From the sequence record OR525702.1: a stretch of DNA of 64,000 nt; one strand, written 5' to 3'. How positions within the stretch are numbered: the first letter of the stretch is position 1; each line of letters begins with the position of its first letter. The DNA is from Escherichia phage vB-Eco-KMB23. The notes under the pieces are model-generated. The model saw only the letters and a program-made list of their open reading frames with translations, was not told where the DNA came from and did not search any database. Made by a program: the position numbers and the translations under genes. Below, piece after piece: positions 3,371 through 60,292 of this stretch.

Positions 3371-3411
3371 ATTATAGGCTCATAATATCTCAATCATGAG
3401 CCTATGTAAAC

Positions 3412-3687
3412 TTATTTCATATTATTGAAATATTCTTCTGCAATTTCGTCGTTATCATGATAAACTTTAGAAGACAGTTTAACATAACCTTCAGCAGTGA
3501 ACATGTTAATCACAACCTTTACAGTATACCACTGACCATCTTCATTACCCATTACTGCGTAAGTTTCAAACATCGGATGATCAGGACCGATAACTTTAAT
3601 ATCATTCACTGTACGACCAAAATCTTCTGAAACACATTTCATAAAGAAGTTGAACAGTTCGCCGTAATTATCCATTTCATTCTCCAA
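3412..3687 (-). CDS. hypothetical protein
   Basis: 91 aa ORF; preceded on the minus strand by a GTTTAC-N18-TACTAT promoter-like cassette. Confidence 0.55.
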   Translation of the reverse strand: MENEMDNYGELFNFFMKCVSEDFGRTVNDIKVIGPDHPMFETYAVMGNEDGQWYTVKVVINMFTAEGYVKLSSKVYHDNDEIAEEYFNNMK

Positions 3688-4479: not shown

Positions 4480-4770
4480 CAACCTTGTCGGGGTTCCACC
4501 TGCTAAGGCAAGTGTTTGTACGAAACGCCGGGATTCGAACCCGGTTATTAAGTAGTTGACGCTACTCAATATTTTAAAAGGCCATATCTCGACCATATCC
4601 GAACGTTCCGTCAAAAACGCTACTCGGTTTACGGCAAACATATTTCCTCGAATCGATAATTCGGTGCGCCGTTTCTGCTGTGATAGTAAAGAGCCAGAAC
4701 ACAGTAAAACTGTGGGAGGAAACTATACTCCAGGGAACATCAGTCCGACGACTTACCGGTAGCGACCCGG
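4480..4770 (-). ncRNA. candidate structured small RNA region with tRNA-like T-arm
   Basis: No credible ORF; T-arm-like CCGGG-TTCGAAT-CCCGG at 4528..4544 (minus); small hairpins; sits between tRNA-Arg-proximal gene and terminator. May correspond to a T4 small stable RNA locus, not verified. Confidence 0.35.
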
Positions 4771-5844: not shown

Positions 5845-6495
5845 TTATATATTGTTAATTTGATTTAGAATTCTTTTTGCTTGAGTATGACTTACACCAA
5901 TATGCTTAGCATATTTAGATAATTCACCACGTTTAGAAAAATCATATAATTTAGAAATTTCTATTCTTCTTTTTCTTTCATCCGCAGAAACTTTTGATTC
6001 GTTTGCTTTTGCTATTTTACGTTTAGCTTCTTGAGAATGAGTTTTACCAGCAAAGCCATTCTTCATTAATCCATTTGAAGACCATCCTTTTAATTTTCCG
6101 TTAGAATGTGCCTTTTTAACACCCAATGAAATTAATTCGCGTTGCTGATCTGTCATAGGATAATTATTTATATGATCCCATCCACCTTCACCGCCGAGTT
6201 TTAAATTATACACATCTGGTTTATTTAAAAACTCTTCTGTGACAATATTTTTCTCAGCTTCAAGCATAGATTCTTTATCATCAAAATACTCTAATATTTC
6301 TTTAGAAAAATTTTCTATACCATATTTATCTTGGGCTCTTTTTAATAATTTACCAGAACCCATATATCCATCATCTAAATTTTCGGTAGAATGCACACCA
6401 ATATAAATTTTATTATTAATTTTATTTGTTATTTTATAAAGATAAAAATGCATATCAGTCCCTAATAAAGAACTGAGCGTCTCACGACGAGTCAT
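5845..6495 (-). mobile_element. segB: GIY-YIG homing endonuclease (segB-like) embedded in tRNA array
   Basis: 216 aa; N-terminal YKITNKINNKIYIGVHST...GYMGSG matches GIY-YIG motif; gene sits 6 nt from tRNA-Ser and 5 nt from tRNA-Gly. Confidence 0.8.
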
Positions 6496-10422: not shown

Positions 10423-10473
10423 ATATTCCTCATAATGCTTTATAACTGTTGGTGGTATAATGGGTCTAAGTCC

Positions 10474-10510
10474 CTTCCATTCAATTCCATTCAATTCCAT
10501 TCAATTCCAT
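10474..10510. repeat. 10-bp tandem repeat (tcaattccat x3 plus partial copy) in gene 2-gene 3 intergenic region
   Basis: Direct reading: cttccat tcaattccat tcaattccat tcaattccat tta. Confidence 0.9.
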
Positions 10511-10548
10511 TTAGAACAAACAACAGAAAAGAATGGAAGATAATAGAA

Positions 10549-21143: not shown

Positions 21144-22010
21144 ATGTTCATTCAAGAACCAAAGAAATTGATTGATACCGGCGAAATTGGTAACGCTTCT
21201 ACTGGTGATATCTTATTCGACGGTGGTAATAAAATTAATAGTGATTTTAACGCAATTTATAATGCGTTTGGCGATCAACGTAAAATGGCAGTAGCAAATG
21301 GAACTGGAGCAGATGGCCAAATTATCCATGCTACTGGATATTATCAAAAACACTCTATTGCAGAGTACGCAACTCCGGTAAAAGTTGGCACTAGGCATGA
21401 TATTGATACCTCTACTGTAGGTGTTAAAGTTATCATTGAAAGAGGCGAACTCGGCGATTGTGTTGAATTCATTAACTCAAATGGATCAATATCAGTTACT
21501 AATCCTTTAACAATTCAAGCTATTGATTCAATTAAAGGTGTTTCGGGTAATTTAGTAGTAACTAGTCCATATAGTAAAGTAACTTTACGCTGTATTTCAT
21601 CTGATAATTCTACGTCGGTTTGGAATTATTCTATTGAAAGTATGTTTGGACAAAAGGAATCACCAGCTGAAGGTACATGGAATATTTCTACATCTGGATC
21701 AGTTGACATTCCATTATTTCATCGCACTGAATACAATATGGCTAAATTGCTAGTTACGTGCCAATCAGTAGATGGAAGAAAAATTAAAACGGCAGAAATA
21801 AATATTCTTGTGGATACTGTTAATTCAGAGGTCATTTCTTCTGAATATGCTGTCATGCGAGTTGGGAATGAAACCGAAGAAGACGAAATCGCTAATATTG
21901 CATTTAGTATTAAAGAAAATTATGTAACGGCGACTATAAGTTCTCCAACTGTCGGTATGAGAGCAGCAGTTAAAGTTATCGCTACGCAGAAAATCGGGGT
22001 GGCTCAATAA
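21144..22010 (+). CDS. 9: gp9 baseplate wedge / long tail fiber socket
   Basis: 288 aa. Confidence 0.95.
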   Translation: MFIQEPKKLIDTGEIGNASTGDILFDGGNKINSDFNAIYNAFGDQRKMAVANGTGADGQIIHATGYYQKHSIAEYATPVKVGTRHDIDTSTVGVKVIIERGELGDCVEFINSNGSISVTNPLTIQAIDSIKGVSGNLVVTSPYSKVTLRCISSDNSTSVWNYSIESMFGQKESPAEGTWNISTSGSVDIPLFHRTEYNMAKLLVTCQSVDGRKIKTAEINILVDTVNSEVISSEYAVMRVGNETEEDEIANIAFSIKENYVTATISSPTVGMRAAVKVIATQKIGVAQ

Positions 22011-32461: not shown

Positions 32462-34568
32462 ATGACTTTATTATCTCCGGGCATTGAGCTCAAAGAAACT
32501 ACGGTTCAAAGCACCGTGGTTAATAACTCTACTGGTACAGCAGCTTTGGCCGGTAAATTCCAGTGGGGTCCTGCTTTTCAAATTAAACAGGTTACAAATG
32601 AAGTAGATTTAGTTAATACTTTTGGTCAACCTACAGCTGAAACTGCTGACTATTTTATGTCTGCAATGAATTTCTTACAATACGGAAATGATTTGCGAGT
32701 TGTGCGTGCTGTCGATAGAGATACCGCTAAAAACTCATCTCCGATTGCCGGTAATATTGAATACACTATTTCTACCCCAGGTAGTAACTACGCGGTTGGA
32801 GATAAAATCACTGTTAAGTATGTTTCAGAAGATGTTGAAACAGAAGGTAAAATTACTGAAGTAGATGCTGATGGAAAAATTAAGAAAATTAATATTCCTA
32901 CCGCAAAAATTATCGCTAAAGCGAAAGAAGTAGGCGAATATCCAGCATTAGGTTCTAACTGGACTGCGGAAATTTCTTCGTCTTCCTCTGGTTTAGCTGC
33001 AGTAATAACTCTTGGGAAAATTATTACTGATTCTGGTATTTTATTAGCTGAAATTGAAAATGCCGAAGCTGCTATGACAGCTGTTGACTTTCAGGCAAAT
33101 CTCGAAAAATATGGAATTCCAGGAGTAGTAGCTCTTTATCCAGGCGAGTTGGGCGATAAAATCGAAATTGAAATCGTATCTAAAGCTGACTACGCAAAAG
33201 GTGCTTCTGCATTACTCCCAATTTATCCAGGTGGCGGAACACGCGCATCTACTGCCAAAGCAGTGTTTGGATATGGACCACAAACTGATTCACAATACGC
33301 TATTATAGTTCGTCGCAATGATGCTATTGTTCAAAGCGTTGTTCTTTCAACAAAGCGTGGTGAAAAAGATATTTACGATAGTAACATCTATATTGATGAC
33401 TTTTTCGCAAAAGGTGGTTCAGAATATATTTTCGCAACTGCACAAAACTGGCCAGAAGGCTTCTCTGGAATTTTAACTCTGTCTGGTGGATTATCATCAA
33501 ATGCTGAAGTAACAGCAGGAGATTTGATGGAAGCTTGGGACTTCTTTGCTGACCGTGAATCTGTTGATGTTCAGTTGTTTATTGCGGGTTCTTGCGCCGG
33601 CGAATCTTTAGAAACAGCATCTACTGTCCAAAAACACGTCGTTTCAATTGGGGATGCTCGCCAAGATTGCTTAGTACTGTGCTCACCACCGCGTGAAACT
33701 GTAGTTGGAATTCCTGTAACTCGTGCTGTTGATAACTTAGTCAATTGGAGAACTGCAGAAACACGTCGTTTCAATTGGGGATGCTCGCCAAGATTGCTTA
33801 GTACTGTGCTCACCACCGCGTGAAACTGTAGTTGGAATTCCTGTAACTCGTGCTGTTGATAACTTAGTCAATTGGAGAACTGCAGCAGGTTCATACACTG
33901 ATAATAACTTTAATATCAGTTCAACCTACGCAGCAATTGATGGTAACTACAAGTATCAGTATGACAAATATAATGATGTGAATCGTTGGGTTCCATTAGC
34001 AGCTGATATTGCTGGTTTATGCGCGAGAACAGATAACGTTTCTCAGACTTGGATGTCTCCAGCTGGTTATAATCGCGGCCAAATTTTGAACGTTATTAAA
34101 CTTGCTATTGAAACTCGCCAGGCGCAGCGCGATCGTTTATACCAAGAAGCTATCAACCCAGTAACTGGCACAGGTGGTGATGGTTACGTATTGTATGGTG
34201 ATAAAACAGCTACTTCTGTTCCTTCTCCATTTGATCGTATTAACGTTCGTCGTCTGTTTAATATGTTGAAAACGAATATCGGACGTAGTTCAAAATATCG
34301 TTTGTTCGAATTAAACAACGCGTTTACTCGTTCATCGTTCCGCACAGAAACTTCCCAGTACTTGCAGGGAATTAAAGCTCTCGGTGGAATTTATGAATAT
34401 CGTGTAGTTTGCGATACAACAAATAACACTCCGTCAGTAATTGATAGAAATGAGTTTGTTGCAACATTCTACATCCAACCGGCTAGAAGCATTAACTACA
34501 TTACCTTAAACTTCGTAGCAACTGCTACTGGTGCAGATTTCGATGAGTTAACTGGTCTTGCAGGTTAA
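32462..34568 (+). pseudogene. 18: tail sheath gene 18 interrupted by 127-bp tandem duplication (frameshift; ORFs 32462..33823 and 33978..34568)
   Basis: Two ORFs in different frames (453 aa + 196 aa); removing one 127-bp copy gives a single 659-codon frame. Confidence 0.85.
33632..33885 (+). repeat. perfect 127-bp direct tandem duplication (2 copies) inside gene 18
   Basis: 33632..33758 identical to 33759..33885 (aaacacgtcgtttcaattggggatgctcg...gtcaattggagaactgcag). Confidence 0.95.
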
Positions 34569-40661: not shown

Positions 40662-41945
40662 ATGGCTAAAATCAACGAACTTCTGCGCGAATCAACCACA
40701 ACGAATAGCAACTCAATCGGTCGCCCAAATCTCGTTGCTTTGACTCGCGCTACCACTAAATTAATATATTCTGACATTGTAGCAACGCAAAGAACTAATC
40801 AACCTGTTGCTGCTTTTTATGGTATCAAATACCTTAACCCGGATAACGAATTTACATTTAAAACTGGTGCTACTTACGCTGGCGAAGCTGGATACGTAGA
40901 CCGAGAACAAATCACAGAATTAACAGAAGAGTCTAAATTAACTCTCAATAAAGGCGATTTATTCAAATATAATAATATCGTTTATAAAGTATTAGAAAAT
41001 ACACCATTTGCTGATATTGAAGAAAGTGATTTAGAATTAGCTCTTCAGATTGCAATTGTTCTTTTAAAGGTTCGTCTATTTTCTGATGCTGCAGTAACAA
41101 GCAAATTTGAAAGCTCTGATAGTGAAATTGCGGATGCTAGATTCCAGATTAATAAATGGCAAACCGCAGTTAAATCTCGTAAACTTAAAACTGGCATCAC
41201 AGTTGAATTAGCACAAGATTTAGAAGCAAACGGATTCGATGCTCCTAATTTCTTGGAAGATTTGCTTGCAACTGAAATGGCGGATGAAATCAATAAAGAT
41301 ATTCTGCAGTCTTTGATTACAGTGTCAAAACGCTATAAAGTTACAGGAATTACTGATACTGGATTCATTGATTTGAGTTATGCATCTGCCCCTGAAGCTG
41401 GTCGTTCATTATACCGAATGGTGTGTGAAATGGTTTCACATATCCAGAAAGAATCAACTTATACAGCAACGTTCTGTGTTGCTTCAGCTCGTGCCGCTGC
41501 GATTCTTGCTGCATCAGGTTGGTTAAAACATAAACCGGAAGATGATAAATATCTTTCACAAAATGCCTACGGGTTCTTAGCTAATGGTTTACCGCTTTAT
41601 TGCGATACCAACAGCCCATTAGATTATGTAATCGTTGGCGTAGTAGAAAATATCGGTGAAAAAGAAATTGTTGGATCAATTTTCTATGCTCCGTATACAG
41701 AAGGTCTTGACTTAGATGACCCTGAACATGTAGGTGCATTTAAAGTTGTAGTTGATCCAGAAAGTTTGCAGCCATCTATCGGTTTATTAGTTAGATATGC
41801 TTTATCTGCAAATCCTTACACTGTAGCAAAAGATGAAAAAGAAGCAAGAATAATTGATGGTGGAGACATGGATAAAATGGCGGGTCGTTCAGATTTGTCT
41901 GTTTTATTAGGTGTTAAGCTACCAAAAATTATCATTGATGAATAA
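40662..41945 (+). CDS. 24: gp24 capsid vertex protein
   Basis: 427 aa, paralogous to gp23. Confidence 0.95.
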   Translation: MAKINELLRESTTTNSNSIGRPNLVALTRATTKLIYSDIVATQRTNQPVAAFYGIKYLNPDNEFTFKTGATYAGEAGYVDREQITELTEESKLTLNKGDLFKYNNIVYKVLENTPFADIEESDLELALQIAIVLLKVRLFSDAAVTSKFESSDSEIADARFQINKWQTAVKSRKLKTGITVELAQDLEANGFDAPNFLEDLLATEMADEINKDILQSLITVSKRYKVTGITDTGFIDLSYASAPEAGRSLYRMVCEMVSHIQKESTYTATFCVASARAAAILAASGWLKHKPEDDKYLSQNAYGFLANGLPLYCDTNSPLDYVIVGVVENIGEKEIVGSIFYAPYTEGLDLDDPEHVGAFKVVVDPESLQPSIGLLVRYALSANPYTVAKDEKEARIIDGGDMDKMAGRSDLSVLLGVKLPKIIIDE

Positions 41946-43558: not shown

Positions 43559-44977
43559 TTATGGATAGGTATAGATGATACCAGTTTCTAAAGCAGTTTT
43601 ATGAATGATGTATCCATTACGTGATTCTTGAACATCAACTTCTGGATAGTCTTTCATCATCTTCTGAAGGGTGTAACGATGCAGGTAGTATTTACTATCT
43701 GGATCTTCAGTTTTCCAATCTTTACCTTCTTCGGTCATTTTTTGGATTTCATCCATAACCCACCAACCGCACCAGATATAAGCCGAAGTACGATGTGGAA
43801 GAGGATGAACATAAGGCAATTCACCTTCTGGTTCTGGAGCAACTTTATCAGTTACCTGAACTTGACCTTCTGCTGTGATAGTTTTGCTATCATAATCAGT
43901 AGCAGTAACAGTTGCAGTAACTTCAATAGTTTGACTTCCAATAGATGATGTATCAACAGTGTATACATTAGTTGACCCTTCTACTGGAGAAGAATCTTTC
44001 TTCCATGAATATTCGATTTGTGCTTCTTCTGGAGCATCCGTAACATTAGCAGTAAATGTAGCCGAAGCATCTTGCTGAACGTTAATAGAAGGAGGAGTCA
44101 ATGTAACCTGTGGATTCATTGTCTTCTTATTAACTGTTAATGATACTTCATTAGAAGTAACTGTTTTTGCGTCATAATCTGTTGCTGTTACTTGCGCTAC
44201 GCATTTAATTCTTTTTACTCCACTTGTAGTTGGAGTATAGCTAAATGTAGCAGAAGTCGCTTCACCAATTTGAGAATCATCTACATACCACTGATACGTA
44301 GCAGATGCCCCATCAGGTTGAGAAGCTAAGGCAGCGGTAAATTCAACGGCTGTTCCAATCACTCCAGCTGGAGGACTATCAGGAGTTACTGCCAAGGTAG
44401 TCGTCTGCGTCTTTTTATTAACAGTCAATGATACTTCATTAGAAGTAACGCTTAGTGCATCATAATCTGCCGCAGTTACTTGAGCTACACACTTGATTTT
44501 TTTAACTCCGCTTGTGTCAGGAGTGTAATTGAATGTAGCGTCAGTTGCTTCGTCTACAGGAGAACCGTCAACGTGCCATTGATACGTAGCGTTTGCACCT
44601 GATGGCTGTGAAGCTAAGGCAGCGGTAAATTGAACGGCTGTTCCGATTACTCCTTCCGGAGGACTAGCAGGAGTTACGGCTAATGTAGTTGTCTGTGTCT
44701 TATTTTGAACCGTGATAGTTGTCGTAGTTTCTGCTGTTTCAGGTTCAGATTCTGCAACTTGATTGGTTGCAACTACTTTAATAGTCTTTTGACCGGCAGG
44801 TCCTTTTAGTACATAACTAAAAGTTGCTGACGTTTCTTCCTGTGGAGCGTCGTCTACAGTCCAAGCATATGTAATAGGTCCATCTCCAGTTTGACCACTG
44901 GGTGTAGCAGTAAACTGCTGAGTCTGATCTATAACTCCAGTAGGTGTTTTAGGAGTTATATCAACTGTAAAAGCCAT
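43559..44977 (-). CDS. hoc: Hoc highly immunogenic outer capsid protein, four Ig-like domains
   Basis: 472 aa; the ORF contains two adjacent ~96-aa Ig-like repeats (TTTLAVTP...LTVNKKT) and is ~96 aa longer than the T4 Hoc length I recall (376 aa). Confidence 0.9.
   Translation of the reverse strand: MAFTVDITPKTPTGVIDQTQQFTATPSGQTGDGPITYAWTVDDAPQEETSATFSYVLKGPAGQKTIKVVATNQVAESEPETAETTTTITVQNKTQTTTLAVTPASPPEGVIGTAVQFTAALASQPSGANATYQWHVDGSPVDEATDATFNYTPDTSGVKKIKCVAQVTAADYDALSVTSNEVSLTVNKKTQTTTLAVTPDSPPAGVIGTAVEFTAALASQPDGASATYQWYVDDSQIGEATSATFSYTPTTSGVKRIKCVAQVTATDYDAKTVTSNEVSLTVNKKTMNPQVTLTPPSINVQQDASATFTANVTDAPEEAQIEYSWKKDSSPVEGSTNVYTVDTSSIGSQTIEVTATVTATDYDSKTITAEGQVQVTDKVAPEPEGELPYVHPLPHRTSAYIWCGWWVMDEIQKMTEEGKDWKTEDPDSKYYLHRYTLQKMMKDYPEVDVQESRNGYIIHKTALETGIIYTYP
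44117..44692 (-). repeat. tandem internal duplication (2 x 288 bp) encoding Ig-like domain of Hoc
   Basis: Codons 96-191 and 192-287 of hoc are ~80% identical repeats. Confidence 0.8.
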
Positions 44978-56134: not shown

Positions 56135-58192
56135 CTACATTTTGAACTTTTTAGACATTCCGTTGATGTTAACCAAAGAAGCTAAGATTTGAGAAACTTC
56201 GTTTTCCTCTTCTTTTGATTCTTCTACAAGGAATTGATTAAATCCAGTCATTGGACGAACTTCACCAGTTTCCATTAAATGGTCGCCATCATATACTGAT
56301 TCTTCTAATTGTTCAGAAGGAGGAACGATTGTGCCTTCGATTAAATACTTGTTATAAGCAGTTTCTTTCATCATGTACGTGCTCACTTTATTAATCTTCA
56401 GCAAAATTCCACGCGGTAAAATAACTTCAGCTTCTGATGGAAATCCTGATAAATGACCTGGAACGATAACTTTGATTCGCTCAGCCCCTTTAATTACCAT
56501 ACCTACGCTAGTTTCAGCATCTTCATTAGCATATGCGGAATGACTACCCATATGCATTAAATCTTCAGCATCAACTGAACCTTCTCCTTCACCAGAAAAT
56601 ACTGCACTGGAATCATCTAAAGCCATATAGTTTTTACCATACTCACCGAAGATATTTGGTTTAAGCGATGTTGATACGAAGTTCTTGAAATAGAACATTT
56701 TATTTTCAATATTATGGCGTAAAGTTTTAAAAGTAACTTCTTGTCCACGATAAAGCGTAGTTCCTGGAGGAAGAACTGATCCTTTGGCGAATGCAGAATC
56801 CAGCGTCTCGATGTGTTTAATAGCTCGTTCCATGTATTCTTCACGAGTAGAATCTGGTTTACCCAAGAGGAACGAGTTCATTTCAACATATGAATCTGCA
56901 CAATAATCTTCAATTACATCGGACTCAGCCTGAGTTAATCCTTTTGGGGGTACTTCAGTACTTGCATATTCATACGCTTGAGAAGCAGACTCATTAATCA
57001 ATTTATAAATGCCATTCATGACAAATTGAATAATAGCTACCTTTTCATCTGGCGTGGCTTTAGAACCTTTAACTAAATCATTGACAATTTTCTTAATAAC
57101 ATCAAAGCTATTAGAAATATTAATGTCAGCAAGATCGCTCAAAATTTTATCGGTTTTATAATCAAAGAATTCTTTATTCTTTAAATATTCCTGAGAACCT
57201 TGATATGTTATATCGCTCTGTAATTTAATAGATGGATCACGTAAACGCGCATGGGCCAATGCAATATGATTTCGGAAGCTTTCTAGTTCATAATCGTTAG
57301 ATTTAAAACGAGAAGCACTCCTCATACCACCGATAGCTCCTTTGCTGAAGTTTGAACCAATCTGAATAACGCCAGAGTTCATTGGTCCTTCTGCTTTATA
57401 TACCGGAACTTTAGATTCAAACTCTTGATATTTCTTAGCGGCGAAGCTATCACCCTGAAGTGAAGCATCAACAGTAGAATATTGAGCTTGTGCTGCTAAT
57501 CGACGACTAATTTTAGTTTTCTGAATAACAGCTTGATCCGTGCGCTTATCATTTTCTAAAGCAATAGAAGCAGCAACAGCAACAGCTTTAGGAACAGCAT
57601 TACCTGTTTTAACATCTACATAAACATCACCAACCTTTGATTCAACTTTTGTGAATAACTCAGTTGAAATAGGAGGTACACCTGGAATGTCTTCTAAATT
57701 GGCATTTTTACGGTAAACCATAATATATGCATACTTTTTATCATAATCCCAGATTTCCTTTAAAAGAACATATCGACCTGCTCCTTTAGTACGTACTAAA
57801 CGGTCAGCAATAACTTGCATTTGACGAGCAGCGCCATTTGTTTTACTTTTTAGTACGCGGAATAGGCATGCGTCAATTTTATACTGTTTCATTGTTTGAA
57901 GAGCAGTATCAAAAACCGCATTAATGACACCAATTGGATTTCCACCCAAGTTTTTAAGTTTAACTAATGATAGTTTCTCATTAACACCTATCATTACGAT
58001 ATGCATCATTTTATCGCCTGGCTTAACGTTTTTATTTGTATCACCGCCAGAGGTGTATGTACAAAATCTAAATCCAGGAAGCACGCTTTCTTCACCAGCT
58101 TGAATAGCAAAAATTTGAGGTATTTTATGCTTAGGATTTAAGTTAACAACCGGCGCCGAAGCGCCGTCAAATAATTCTGTAATAAGTTCCAT
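56135..58192 (-). CDS. Alt-family mono-ADP-ribosyltransferase paralog
   Basis: 685 aa; shares N-terminal MELITELFD... and C-terminal R...STS...EAEVILPRG (R-S-ExE) motifs with neighbouring alt. Confidence 0.85.
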   Translation of the reverse strand: MELITELFDGASAPVVNLNPKHKIPQIFAIQAGEESVLPGFRFCTYTSGGDTNKNVKPGDKMMHIVMIGVNEKLSLVKLKNLGGNPIGVINAVFDTALQTMKQYKIDACLFRVLKSKTNGAARQMQVIADRLVRTKGAGRYVLLKEIWDYDKKYAYIMVYRKNANLEDIPGVPPISTELFTKVESKVGDVYVDVKTGNAVPKAVAVAASIALENDKRTDQAVIQKTKISRRLAAQAQYSTVDASLQGDSFAAKKYQEFESKVPVYKAEGPMNSGVIQIGSNFSKGAIGGMRSASRFKSNDYELESFRNHIALAHARLRDPSIKLQSDITYQGSQEYLKNKEFFDYKTDKILSDLADINISNSFDVIKKIVNDLVKGSKATPDEKVAIIQFVMNGIYKLINESASQAYEYASTEVPPKGLTQAESDVIEDYCADSYVEMNSFLLGKPDSTREEYMERAIKHIETLDSAFAKGSVLPPGTTLYRGQEVTFKTLRHNIENKMFYFKNFVSTSLKPNIFGEYGKNYMALDDSSAVFSGEGEGSVDAEDLMHMGSHSAYANEDAETSVGMVIKGAERIKVIVPGHLSGFPSEAEVILPRGILLKINKVSTYMMKETAYNKYLIEGTIVPPSEQLEESVYDGDHLMETGEVRPMTGFNQFLVEESKEEENEVSQILASLVNINGMSKKFKM

Positions 58193-58195
58193 GAT

Positions 58196-60292
58196 TTATC
58201 CTTGAACGAACTTGTAAGGCATGTTTGTAATATCTATGCAAGACGCAATAATTCCAAGAGATGATTCTACTTTTTGTTTAACATTTGATGAAACAAATGA
58301 TGCAAAATCAACTCTGTCTTCTATTTCAATATCACCTGTCATTGCAACTACTTCACCAGTTTCCATTAGACGATCACCGTCATAAATTACTGATTCGGTG
58401 AGTTCTTCCGTAGTCATAACTTCAGCTTGAATGAGTTTTGTATTATTAGATGTTGTTCCGTCATTATTAGAAGCATCAGTTATTTTATTAACTTTGACCA
58501 TCAATCCGCGTGGTAGAATAACTTCAGCTTCTGTTGCTATTCCGAGACTTCCTGGATATACAACATTAACTTTATGAGCTCCATCAATTGCCCATCCTAT
58601 TTGAACTTTAACGTATTCAGGATTTTCTTTATACGCTCTTATTTCGTTTGGATTAATAGTTATTCCTTCTTCATTTTTATCAACTGTCAATTCATTACGA
58701 GCTTCTGGTTCTAAAAGACCAATACCAGCATGTGTAATTCCAAAACGTCCAAAAATGATAGGAGTTAAAGAAGTAGATACAAAATTTCTGAAATAGAATA
58801 CTTTATTTTTAACTAGTGCTTCGTATATAGGAGCAGTCATACTTTGAGCACGATAAACTGTAATGCCTTCTGGTATACGGTCACCATTTTCAAAAGCTGA
58901 ATCTAAGTTATTTATAGCAGATTCAATTTCTTTTTCACTCATTACATCATATCGTTCTGGATTGTAGCGTCCTAAAAGAAGATTATTGATGTCAGTATAT
59001 CCTGAACCACAATACTCTCTAATACCACGCTTTTGTGATGGAGTATATTTAGAACCATCACGAGCAATAGTAATATCAATCATTGGACCTGCACCAATTC
59101 CAGAAAAGCTATAAATCATTCGTTTGAGGAATTTAGTTTTTGCTGCGTTCCAGGAATTTTTAGTTATTTCTTCCCAGACTTCATCTGACTGCCCTTTACG
59201 AGTTTTATTATGTTTATCAAGCCAATTATCTTTATATTCTTCAAAGAATTGATTAACAGCTGCTGCGTATTTCTCTAAACATTTTATTGAAGTAGTTGGT
59301 TCATTTTTAATCGCATTAAGAATTACATCTTTAATTTTTTCAGAAACTTCATTAACCTCACTTTTTGAAAAGAATTTATAGTCATAATGAAGTTCATCTG
59401 CAGTTCCTTCAGCAATAATTTTTGCTGCTTTAGTTTTAGAAGCCAATGAATTAATTCCAAGTTTCATTTCTTCTGCTTCGGGAATTAAAGGAGCGGTAGC
59501 AGGTTTATTGAAATTAGCTGCGGTAGATTCATACTTCTGGAATAATTCACTTTCAAATCTAGAAGATTCTAATGATTGACTTTGTGCAATTGCTCTACGG
59601 GAAATTTTAACTTTAACGATTACAGCTTGGTCAGAACGTTTATCATTTTCTTGCGCAATAGATGCAGCAATTGCCTCATTTTTAGTTACTTGAGCTCCAG
59701 TATCTTTATTGATATAAACATCACCGACCTTCGATTCAACTTTAGTAAAGAGCTCGGTACTAATTTCCGGAACTCCTGGAATGTCTTCTAGTGATACATT
59801 TTTGCGATGTATAAGAATATATGCATACTTTTTATCGTAATCCCAGAGTTCCTTAAGAAGGACGTATCTGCCACCTGAACGACTGCGGATAAGTCTATCA
59901 GCAATAAGTTGAATTTGACGAGCTTGACCAGCAGTTTTAGACTTAAGAATACGGAGCATACAGGCATCAATTTTATACTGACGCATCGTCTGCATCGCAA
60001 CAGTAAAAACTGAATTGATGTAATTAATTGGGCTTGGACCGAGACCTTTTAATTTAGCAATTGAACCTTTAGCAGTTAATGTAAAAGGAACAATATGCAT
60101 CATTTTATCGCCCATCTTTAAATCGCGATTAGTATCACCTCCAGATGTATAGGTACATAAACGAAAGCCTGGTTGTTCAATTGCGTCATCAACATGAACT
60201 GAAAAAATTTGTGGTATTTTCTTCTTTGGATTTAAGTTTGTAATCGGAAGAGTAGTATCTTCGTCAAATAATTCTGTAATGAGTTCCATCAT
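58196..60292 (-). CDS. alt: Alt ADP-ribosyltransferase (packaged, modifies host RNA polymerase)
   Basis: 698 aa (start may be second Met, 60289); YRAQ...STS...EAEVILPRG motifs; late promoter upstream. Confidence 0.88.
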   Translation of the reverse strand: MMELITELFDEDTTLPITNLNPKKKIPQIFSVHVDDAIEQPGFRLCTYTSGGDTNRDLKMGDKMMHIVPFTLTAKGSIAKLKGLGPSPINYINSVFTVAMQTMRQYKIDACMLRILKSKTAGQARQIQLIADRLIRSRSGGRYVLLKELWDYDKKYAYILIHRKNVSLEDIPGVPEISTELFTKVESKVGDVYINKDTGAQVTKNEAIAASIAQENDKRSDQAVIVKVKISRRAIAQSQSLESSRFESELFQKYESTAANFNKPATAPLIPEAEEMKLGINSLASKTKAAKIIAEGTADELHYDYKFFSKSEVNEVSEKIKDVILNAIKNEPTTSIKCLEKYAAAVNQFFEEYKDNWLDKHNKTRKGQSDEVWEEITKNSWNAAKTKFLKRMIYSFSGIGAGPMIDITIARDGSKYTPSQKRGIREYCGSGYTDINNLLLGRYNPERYDVMSEKEIESAINNLDSAFENGDRIPEGITVYRAQSMTAPIYEALVKNKVFYFRNFVSTSLTPIIFGRFGITHAGIGLLEPEARNELTVDKNEEGITINPNEIRAYKENPEYVKVQIGWAIDGAHKVNVVYPGSLGIATEAEVILPRGLMVKVNKITDASNNDGTTSNNTKLIQAEVMTTEELTESVIYDGDRLMETGEVVAMTGDIEIEDRVDFASFVSSNVKQKVESSLGIIASCIDITNMPYKFVQG

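What the first reader, a model, noticed from the sequence alone, without database searches (positions are those of the whole stretch)
33632..33885. Perfect 127-bp tandem duplication frameshifts the essential tail sheath gene 18
33632..33758 and 33759..33885 are base-for-base identical direct repeats inside gene 18. Because 127 is not a multiple of 3, the sheath ORF terminates at 33823 and the C-terminal 196 residues appear in another frame (33978..34568). Deleting one copy restores a single 659-codon ORF, the length I recall for T4 gp18. Tail sheath is essential in a contractile-tailed phage, so this is either an assembly/sequencing artefact, a defective genome, or a very recent slipped-strand duplication; zero divergence between copies argues for recent or artefactual origin.
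Basis: seen in the sequence. Interest (0 to 1): 0.8.

Follow-up and report, generated by a model that had tools for sequence, protein, structure and literature searches.

The report
Assembler overlap left inside sheath gene
The exact 127-base doubling that seems to break this T4-like phage's essential tail sheath gene is almost certainly a leftover of genome assembly (the end overlap that the SPAdes program adds to circular contigs, moved inside when the genome was rotated), not a feature of the virus.

Summary
Window 33632-33758 and 33759-33885 are identical, adjacent 127-nt copies. The gene 18 ORF stops at 33823, and removing one copy restores a 659-aa tail sheath.

The interpretation resolves to an assembly artefact:
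- **Source.** The truncated 453-aa product is GenBank WQN07426.1 of Escherichia phage vB-Eco-KMB23.
- **Viability.** The paper describing it reports a triple-plaque-purified phage with a burst of 95 PFU per cell.
- **Method.** It was sequenced on MiSeq 2x300, assembled with SPAdes 3.10.1, and then "zeroed" (rotated) to a reference phage.
- **Length.** 127 is the largest SPAdes k-mer. It is also the documented length of the false end overlap on circular or circularly permuted phage contigs.
- **Junction and context.** The junction has no microhomology. Hundreds of relatives have one copy. Gene 18 is the only one of about 75 reference genes compared that is broken.
- **Siblings.** Six of seven other genomes from the same study each carry exactly one exact tandem duplication that is absent from their nearest relatives (55 bp in five, 50 bp in one). 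One of them splits the long tail fibre gene 37 of KMB38.

This is not a real biological feature. The true genome is probably 127 bp shorter, with an intact gene 18.

The parts
33632..33758 (+). Copy 1 of the 127-nt unit. It encodes gp18 residues 391-432 plus the first base of codon 433, in the correct frame.
   Evidence: exact identity with 33759-33885.
33759..33885 (+). Copy 2 of the 127-nt unit, the redundant copy. It is read one base out of register by the upstream ORF. Most likely it is the untrimmed SPAdes k=127 end overlap.
   Evidence: for the sequence; in every listed relative the matched span is shorter than the query by exactly 127. for the mechanism.
33740..33778 (+). Novel junction sequence (…GGAGAACTGCAG|AAACACGTCG…), between 33758 and 33759. 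It should not exist in the real genome.
   Evidence: unique in the window; absent from IMG/VR; no phage record matches across it in one piece.
32462..33823 (+). Apparent truncated gene 18 ORF (453 aa), deposited as WQN07426.1 'tail sheath'. Residues 1-432 are genuine and the last 21 are out of frame.
   Evidence: Pfam PF04984 is cut at profile position 83 of 168.
33978..34568 (+). C-terminal remnant of gene 18 (gp18 residues 464-659) in the other frame. The frame is open from 33741, but it has no start codon before GTG 33978 and no Shine-Dalgarno sequence there.
32462..34568 (+). Gene 18 (tail sheath) as it most likely is in the phage: 1980 nt, 659 codons, once one 127-nt copy is removed.
   Evidence: restoration. 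(exact identity to known tail sheath proteins). (all five gp18 Pfam domains complete).

Best explanation
The duplication is an assembly and editing artefact in the deposited genome of Escherichia phage vB-Eco-KMB23. T4-like genomes are circularly permuted, so SPAdes returns them as a contig whose last k bases repeat its first k bases. The value of k is 127 when reads are at least 250 nt. The authors then rotated ('zeroed') the contig to start where the reference phage starts. This joined the old contig ends, and the overlap was not trimmed first. The old ends happened to lie in gene 18, so the 127-nt overlap became an internal, perfectly identical tandem duplication that shifts the frame on paper only. 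The real phage has one copy and an intact 659-aa sheath. What is shown: the sequence facts, the identity of the source record, the published method, the viability of the phage, and the same signature in sibling genomes. What is inferred: that the overlap was not trimmed in this particular genome, because the reads were not available.
For: - **Length.** The repeat is exactly 127 nt, with 100% identity and adjacent copies. [quoted passage not shown]
- **Source and method.** The 453-aa product equals WQN07426.1 of vB-Eco-KMB23, and Hoc and Alt match the same phage. [quoted passage not shown]
- **Viability.** The phage was purified through three single-plaque passages. It has 72% adsorption, a 10-minute latent period and a burst of 95 PFU per cell, and it was used in a cocktail. 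That is incompatible with a null allele of the sheath gene.
- **Junction.** There is no microhomology at the junction.
- **Relatives.** All listed Tequatrovirus relatives have one copy. The restored protein is exactly identical to known sheath proteins.
- **Rest of the window.** Gene 18 is the only broken gene among about 75 reference genes compared.
- **Sibling genomes from the same study.** Six of seven examined carry exactly one exact tandem duplication that their nearest relatives lack: KMB22 55 bp, KMB36 55 bp in a holin gene, KMB35 55 bp, KMB41 55 bp, KMB38 55 bp splitting long tail fibre gene 37, and KMB46 50 bp. From my own knowledge of SPAdes, 55 is the last k of its default ladder for short reads.
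- **Controls.** Stretches from two other laboratories (65 kb of ECP2301 and 49 kb of SholemSchwarzbard) contain none.
Against: - The raw reads and the original SPAdes contig were not available, so no direct test was possible.
- The siblings mostly show 55 bp rather than 127 bp, although the paper states 2x300 reads for the study. The assemblies therefore did not all end at the same k, for reasons I cannot see.
- KMB46's 50 bp is not a default SPAdes k.
- One sibling (KMB14) has no duplication.
- Table 1 of the paper lists KMB23 as 151.5 kb, whereas the protein collection records a 166,939-bp contig. This hints at a re-assembly that is not described.
Confidence: 0.93

Rival explanations
1. A real, very recent tandem duplication (replication slippage or illegitimate recombination) is present in the sequenced phage stock. 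It would give a gene 18 frameshift allele that was fixed or dominant when the DNA was prepared.
For: Zero divergence between the copies is also what a very recent event would give. T4-type phages do generate tandem duplications (established knowledge). A diverged natural one lies in hoc in this same window, at 44121-44701.
Against: - The sheath is indispensable for a contractile tail. The stock was plaque-purified three times and grows with a burst of 95 PFU per cell.
- The break cuts the PF04984 sheath domain in half. There is no slippery site or restart signal that could rescue it.
- The length coincides exactly with the assembler's k-mer.
- There is no microhomology at the junction.
- Six sibling genomes from the same pipeline show the same kind of lesion, including one in the long tail fibre gene 37.
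Confidence: 0.03
2. It is an artefact of another kind, not specifically the SPAdes k=127 overlap. Examples are a manual or Geneious join of two overlapping contigs, or a scaffolding or polishing error, that happened to leave 127 bp.
For: KMB46 carries a 50-bp record-specific duplication, and 50 is not a default SPAdes k. So the laboratory's joining step can leave overlaps of other lengths. The mismatch between 151.5 kb in Table 1 and the 166,939-bp record suggests later manual work.
Against: An arbitrary join has no reason to give exactly 127, and the paper names SPAdes as the assembler. In practice this rival leads to the same conclusion: the feature is not real.
Confidence: 0.035
3. The gene is genuinely split or recoded. 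Either a full-length sheath is made by programmed ribosomal frameshifting inside copy 2, or two polypeptides together form a working sheath.
For: None beyond the existence of two ORFs that together cover most of gp18.
Against: - No X XXY YYZ slippery heptamer lies in frame between 33600 and the stop at 33823.
- The C-terminal frame has no ATG, GTG or TTG between its upstream stop (33738) and GTG 33978, and there is no Shine-Dalgarno sequence there.
- Residues 433-463 would be missing from both pieces.
- No relative has this arrangement.
Confidence: 0.005

Closest known systems
SPAdes k-mer end overlap on circular or circularly permuted phage contigs (the '127 bp artificial overlap')
   Same: The length is exactly 127 nt, the copies are perfectly identical, and the genome is a circularly permuted phage assembled with SPAdes from MiSeq reads.
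   Different: The overlap is normally seen at the two ends of the contig and trimmed there. Here it sits roughly 97 kb inside the record, estimated from the rIIA-zeroed sibling KMB22, because the contig was rotated before trimming. It therefore looks like a tandem duplication inside a gene.
Terminal redundancy placed internally in a phage assembly (Phage Annotation Guide, PMC8785237, Question 4 and Fig. 2)
   Same: A redundancy created by the way linear phage DNA assembles as a circle ends up inside the contig and misleads annotation.
   Different: That case concerns real biological terminal repeats. Here the redundancy has no biological counterpart, and its length is set by the assembler's k-mer.
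Natural tandem duplications in T4-like genomes, for example the Ig-domain repeat in hoc in this same window
   Same: Head-to-tail direct repeat inside a structural gene.
   Different: The hoc repeat (44121-44701) has a period of 288 nt, which is 96 codons and so in frame. Its copies are only 78% identical, and relatives such as ECP2301 share it. The gene 18 repeat is out of frame, 100% identical and unique to one record.
T4 gp18 tail sheath protein family
   Same: After one copy is removed, the protein has all five gp18 Pfam domains and is identical to known sheath proteins.
   Different: Nothing differs. The apparent truncation is not a property of the protein.

Membership tests
Untrimmed SPAdes end overlap made internal by rotation | Repeat length equals the final assembly k-mer (127 for reads of 250 nt or more) | tested here: met
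   The length is exactly 127. 127 bp is documented as the SPAdes overlap. The default k ladder itself is from my own knowledge of SPAdes.
Untrimmed SPAdes end overlap made internal by rotation | Two copies, directly adjacent, 100% identical, with nothing shared beyond the unit | tested here: met
   the run of period-127 identity is exactly 127 long.
Untrimmed SPAdes end overlap made internal by rotation | Genome was assembled with SPAdes and then re-opened at another position | tested here: met
   [quoted passage not shown] The source record was identified by exact protein look-up.
Untrimmed SPAdes end overlap made internal by rotation | Duplication is absent from close relatives, and the single-copy version is intact | tested here: met
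Untrimmed SPAdes end overlap made internal by rotation | Other genomes from the same pipeline carry one such duplication each, at unrelated positions | tested here: met
   Six of seven siblings do: 55 bp in five and 50 bp in one. Their length is 55 or 50 rather than 127, which is only partly explained.
Untrimmed SPAdes end overlap made internal by rotation | No sequencing read contains the copy-to-copy junction | not testable with these tools
   Raw reads are not available here.
Natural slipped-strand or illegitimate-recombination duplication | Compatible with a viable phage (in frame, or in a dispensable gene) | tested here: not met
   127 is not a multiple of 3. It truncates the sheath within PF04984, yet the phage is viable.
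Natural slipped-strand or illegitimate-recombination duplication | Short homology at the duplication end points (usual but not obligatory) | tested here: not met
   Zero bases of microhomology.
Programmed ribosomal frameshift or split gene | Slippery site in the overlap, or a translation start for the downstream part, conserved among relatives | tested here: not met
   One search finds neither; relatives have an uninterrupted gene.
T4 gp18 tail sheath | Gp18 domains I, II and III plus the sheath C-terminal domain, about 659 aa | tested here: met
   on the restored protein; exact identity to annotated tail sheath proteins.

The most novel reading that the evidence does not exclude
The duplication is physically present in vKMB23 DNA. 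One way would be a high-frequency defective genome carried along in the stock by co-infection with wild type. Another would be a phage that tolerates a split or recoded sheath. The match to the SPAdes k-mer would then be coincidence.
Probability: 0.02. Interest if true: 0.6.

Novelty: not a real feature. Interest (0 to 1): 0.05.

Why it matters
Biologically it does not matter. It tells us nothing new about tail sheaths or about duplication in T4-like phages.

Its value is practical. A public genome of a candidate therapeutic phage, and at least six sibling records, carry a false duplication. The result is truncated or split annotations of important genes: tail sheath in KMB23, long tail fibre gp37 in KMB38, and a putative holin in KMB36. 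Errors of this kind propagate into protein databases, and the 453-aa 'tail sheath' is already there as WQN07426.1. They can also be mistaken for pseudogenes, frameshifting or defective phages.

The case suggests a simple screen. An exact tandem duplication whose length equals an assembler k-mer (55, 77, 99 or 127) and that relatives lack should be treated as an artefact until reads show otherwise.

Tried and rejected
- **Searching sequence collections for the source record.** The junction and the 127-mer gave no exact match in IMG/VR, JGI metagenome contigs or GTDB genome contigs. BLAST found nothing in E. coli complete genomes or plasmids. The record itself (OR525702) is not in the phage collection.
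- **Looking for an independent assembly.** The look-up of encoding contigs found no contig for the truncated sheath or for Hoc, so I could not see an independent assembly of the same reads. The source was finally identified by exact protein look-up.
- **Defective or decaying genome.** Rejected, because every other reference gene compared in the window is intact.
- **Frameshifting or re-initiation rescue.** Rejected on sequence.
- **A change planted in the window rather than present in the public record.** Rejected, because the exact frameshifted 453-aa product is in NCBI.
- **Explaining the sibling lengths.** I could not explain why the siblings show 55 bp, or 50 bp in KMB46, rather than 127 bp.

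Full report
**1. The observation**

Window 33632-33758 and 33759-33885 are identical, adjacent 127-nt copies. Tandem Repeats Finder gives period 127, 2.0 copies and 100% matches. The stretch over which base i equals base i+127 is exactly 127 long, so the two end points share no extra base and there is no microhomology.

The gene 18 ORF starts at 32462. It reads correctly through residue 432, then reads copy 2 one base out of register and stops at 33823, giving 453 aa. The C-terminal 196 residues are in another frame at 33978-34568. Removing one copy gives a 659-aa ORF.

This is the only exact tandem duplication with a period of 20-400 bp in the whole window.

**2. Context**

The window is a Tequatrovirus (T4-like) structural region. 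It is collinear with Escherichia phage ECP2301 and SholemSchwarzbard at about 98% identity. From 8 kb to 64 kb the 127-bp insertion is the only sizeable structural difference.

About 75 annotated ECP2301 genes were compared with the window's ORFs. Only the sheath gene is interrupted; the few other differences are two genes absent from the variable 3-7 kb region and two cut off by the window's start.

In BLAST against 50,697 phage records, every listed relative matches the region in two pieces. The matched span in each relative is shorter than the query by exactly 127. A record holding the duplication would have matched in one piece, as the sibling records do.

The restored 659-aa protein is letter for letter the tail sheath of JLBYU22, pSs-1 and other phages. 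It has all five gp18 Pfam domains. The frameshift cuts the PF04984 sheath domain at profile position 83 of 168.

**3. Where the sequence comes from**

Exact look-up of the window's proteins shows that the frameshifted 453-aa product is GenBank WQN07426.1, 'tail sheath [Escherichia phage vB-Eco-KMB23]', from a 166,939-bp record. Hoc (WQN07439.1) and Alt (WQN07455.1) belong to the same phage. So the duplication is in the public record, not something added to the window.

The phage is described in Arch Virol 2024 (PMC11162368):
- It was purified by three single-plaque isolations.
- It shows 72% adsorption, a 10-minute latent period and a burst of 95 PFU per cell, and it was chosen for a therapeutic cocktail.
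- Its DNA was sequenced on MiSeq 2x300 and assembled de novo with SPAdes 3.10.1.

**4. Mechanism**

SPAdes returns a circular or circularly permuted genome as a linear contig whose last k bases repeat its first k. With reads of 250 nt or more, the default k ladder ends at 127 (the ladder is from my own knowledge of SPAdes). Phage papers describe exactly this:
[quoted passage not shown] - 127-bp terminal repeats removed before the genome was reopened (PMC8104045).

If the contig is closed and re-opened elsewhere without trimming, the overlap becomes an internal, perfect, microhomology-free tandem duplication of exactly k bases. It lands wherever the assembler happened to break the circle.

All of these predictions are met here. 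The sibling KMB22 is zeroed at rIIA and has its sheath gene at 96.3-98.3 kb. By analogy the KMB23 junction lies about 97 kb inside the record, far from its ends.

**5. Independent test on sibling genomes**

I fetched seven other genomes from the same study and scanned them for exact tandem duplications with periods of 20-400 bp.

| Genome | Duplication | Position | What it hits |
|---|---|---|---|
| KMB22 (OR539217) | 55 bp | 161622 | region annotated motA.1, beside the DNA topoisomerase gene |
| KMB36 (OR525703) | 55 bp | 41155 | putative holin gene |
| KMB35 (OR525704) | 55 bp | 41411 | hypothetical gene |
| KMB41 (OR539216) | 55 bp | 21484 | two overlapping hypothetical ORFs |
| KMB38 (OR525701) | 55 bp | 156993 | splits long tail fibre gene 37 into two annotated CDS |
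| KMB46 (OR525699, first 50 kb) | 50 bp | 3371 | unannotated gap in KMB46; relatives annotate hypothetical proteins there |
| KMB14 (OR424384) | none | – | – |

Each of the six has exactly one duplication. In every case the nearest relatives carry a single copy, including some whose flanks are 100% identical (G8, Ozark and teqhad for KMB22; PTK and AlbertHofmann for KMB38).

From my own knowledge, 55 is the last k of the SPAdes default ladder for short reads. Control stretches from other laboratories (65 kb of ECP2301 and 49 kb of SholemSchwarzbard) contain none.

One k-length, record-specific duplication per genome, in six of seven genomes from one pipeline, is the signature of a processing step rather than of biology. 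In KMB38 it hits the long tail fibre gene 37.

**6. Rivals**

- **A real recent duplication.** It would explain the zero divergence. It does not fit a plaque-purified, well-growing phage, the exact k-mer length, the lack of microhomology or the sibling pattern.
- **Recoding or a split gene.** This is excluded by sequence. There is no slippery heptamer in frame before the stop. The downstream frame has no ATG, GTG or TTG between the stop at 33738 and GTG 33978, and there is no Shine-Dalgarno sequence there. Residues 433-463 would be missing from both pieces.
- **A different kind of joining artefact.** This cannot be excluded, and KMB46's 50 bp shows that other lengths occur. It leads to the same verdict.

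**7. What remains unexplained**

- The siblings carry 55 bp rather than 127 bp, although the paper states 2x300 reads.
- KMB46 carries 50 bp, which is not a default SPAdes k.
- Table 1 of the paper lists KMB23 at 151.5 kb with 254 genes, while the record is 166,939 bp. KMB23 may have been re-assembled with other settings, which could also explain its different k. This is inference only.

**8. Verdict**

This is not a real feature of the phage. The true genome is most likely 166,812 bp (166,939 minus 127) with an intact 659-codon gene 18. Interest is low. The useful outcome is a correction to several public records and a simple screening rule. Confidence in the SPAdes-overlap explanation is 0.93. 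Confidence that it is an artefact of some kind is about 0.97.

Noticed in passing
L016:8193-8302 (OR525701.1, 156993-157102): Sibling phage KMB38 has an exact 55-bp tandem duplication that splits long tail fibre gene 37 into two annotated CDS. Phages PTK and AlbertHofmann, whose flanks are 100% identical, have one copy. This is the same artefact class as the finding.
   Followed up: yes
L007, L008, L009, L010, L012 (KMB22 record 161622-161731; KMB36 41155-41264; KMB35 41411-41520; KMB41 21484-21593; KMB46 3371-3470): Five further sibling records each carry one exact, record-specific tandem duplication: 55 bp in four and 50 bp in KMB46. KMB36's lies in a putative holin gene. The 50-bp length in KMB46 is not a default SPAdes k and is unexplained.
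   Followed up: yes
window 5845-6495 (-): A 216-aa GIY-YIG, Seg-like homing endonuclease ORF (Pfam GIY-YIG, SegE_GIY-YIG, and a below-cut-off NUMOD3 match) sits between tRNA-Ser and tRNA-Gly. KMB22 has tRNA-Pro at that position, and ECP2301 has only about 80 bp there. No tRNA-Pro was found in the window.
   Followed up: partly
window 43559-44977 (-), repeat at 44121-44701: Hoc is 472 aa here, against 376 aa in sibling KMB22. It contains a 288-nt (96-codon) tandem repeat at 78% identity, which looks like an extra Ig/PKD-like domain. This is a natural, in-frame, diverged duplication and contrasts with the gene 18 artefact.
   Followed up: partly
window 56135-58192 (-) and 58196-60292 (-): Two adjacent Alt-like ADP-ribosyltransferase paralogues, about 69% identical at the DNA level over roughly 725 nt. 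ECP2301 has them too.
   Followed up: no
window 4518-4611 (-): ARAGORN calls a 94-nt tRNA-Lys (anticodon ttt), but Rfam's tRNA model does not report it at its gathering score. It may be a false call or an atypical tRNA-like element.
   Followed up: no
window 10471-10511: A perfect (TTCCATTCAA) x3.7 microsatellite-like repeat lies near the 5' end of the tail completion (gene 3-like) gene. The longest ORF there is 202 aa, against 176 aa annotated in ECP2301.
   Followed up: no
phage record MG010123.1 (hits H17 and H31): A 32-kb record named 'Staphylococcus phage SAJK-IND' carries a T4-type tail sheath gene 98.7-99.8% identical to this coliphage. It looks like a mislabelled or contaminated record.
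   Followed up: no
PMC11162368 Table 1: The paper lists vKMB23 as 151.5 kb with 254 genes, but the protein collection records a 166,939-bp contig for the phage. The deposited sequence may be a later re-assembly.
   Followed up: no
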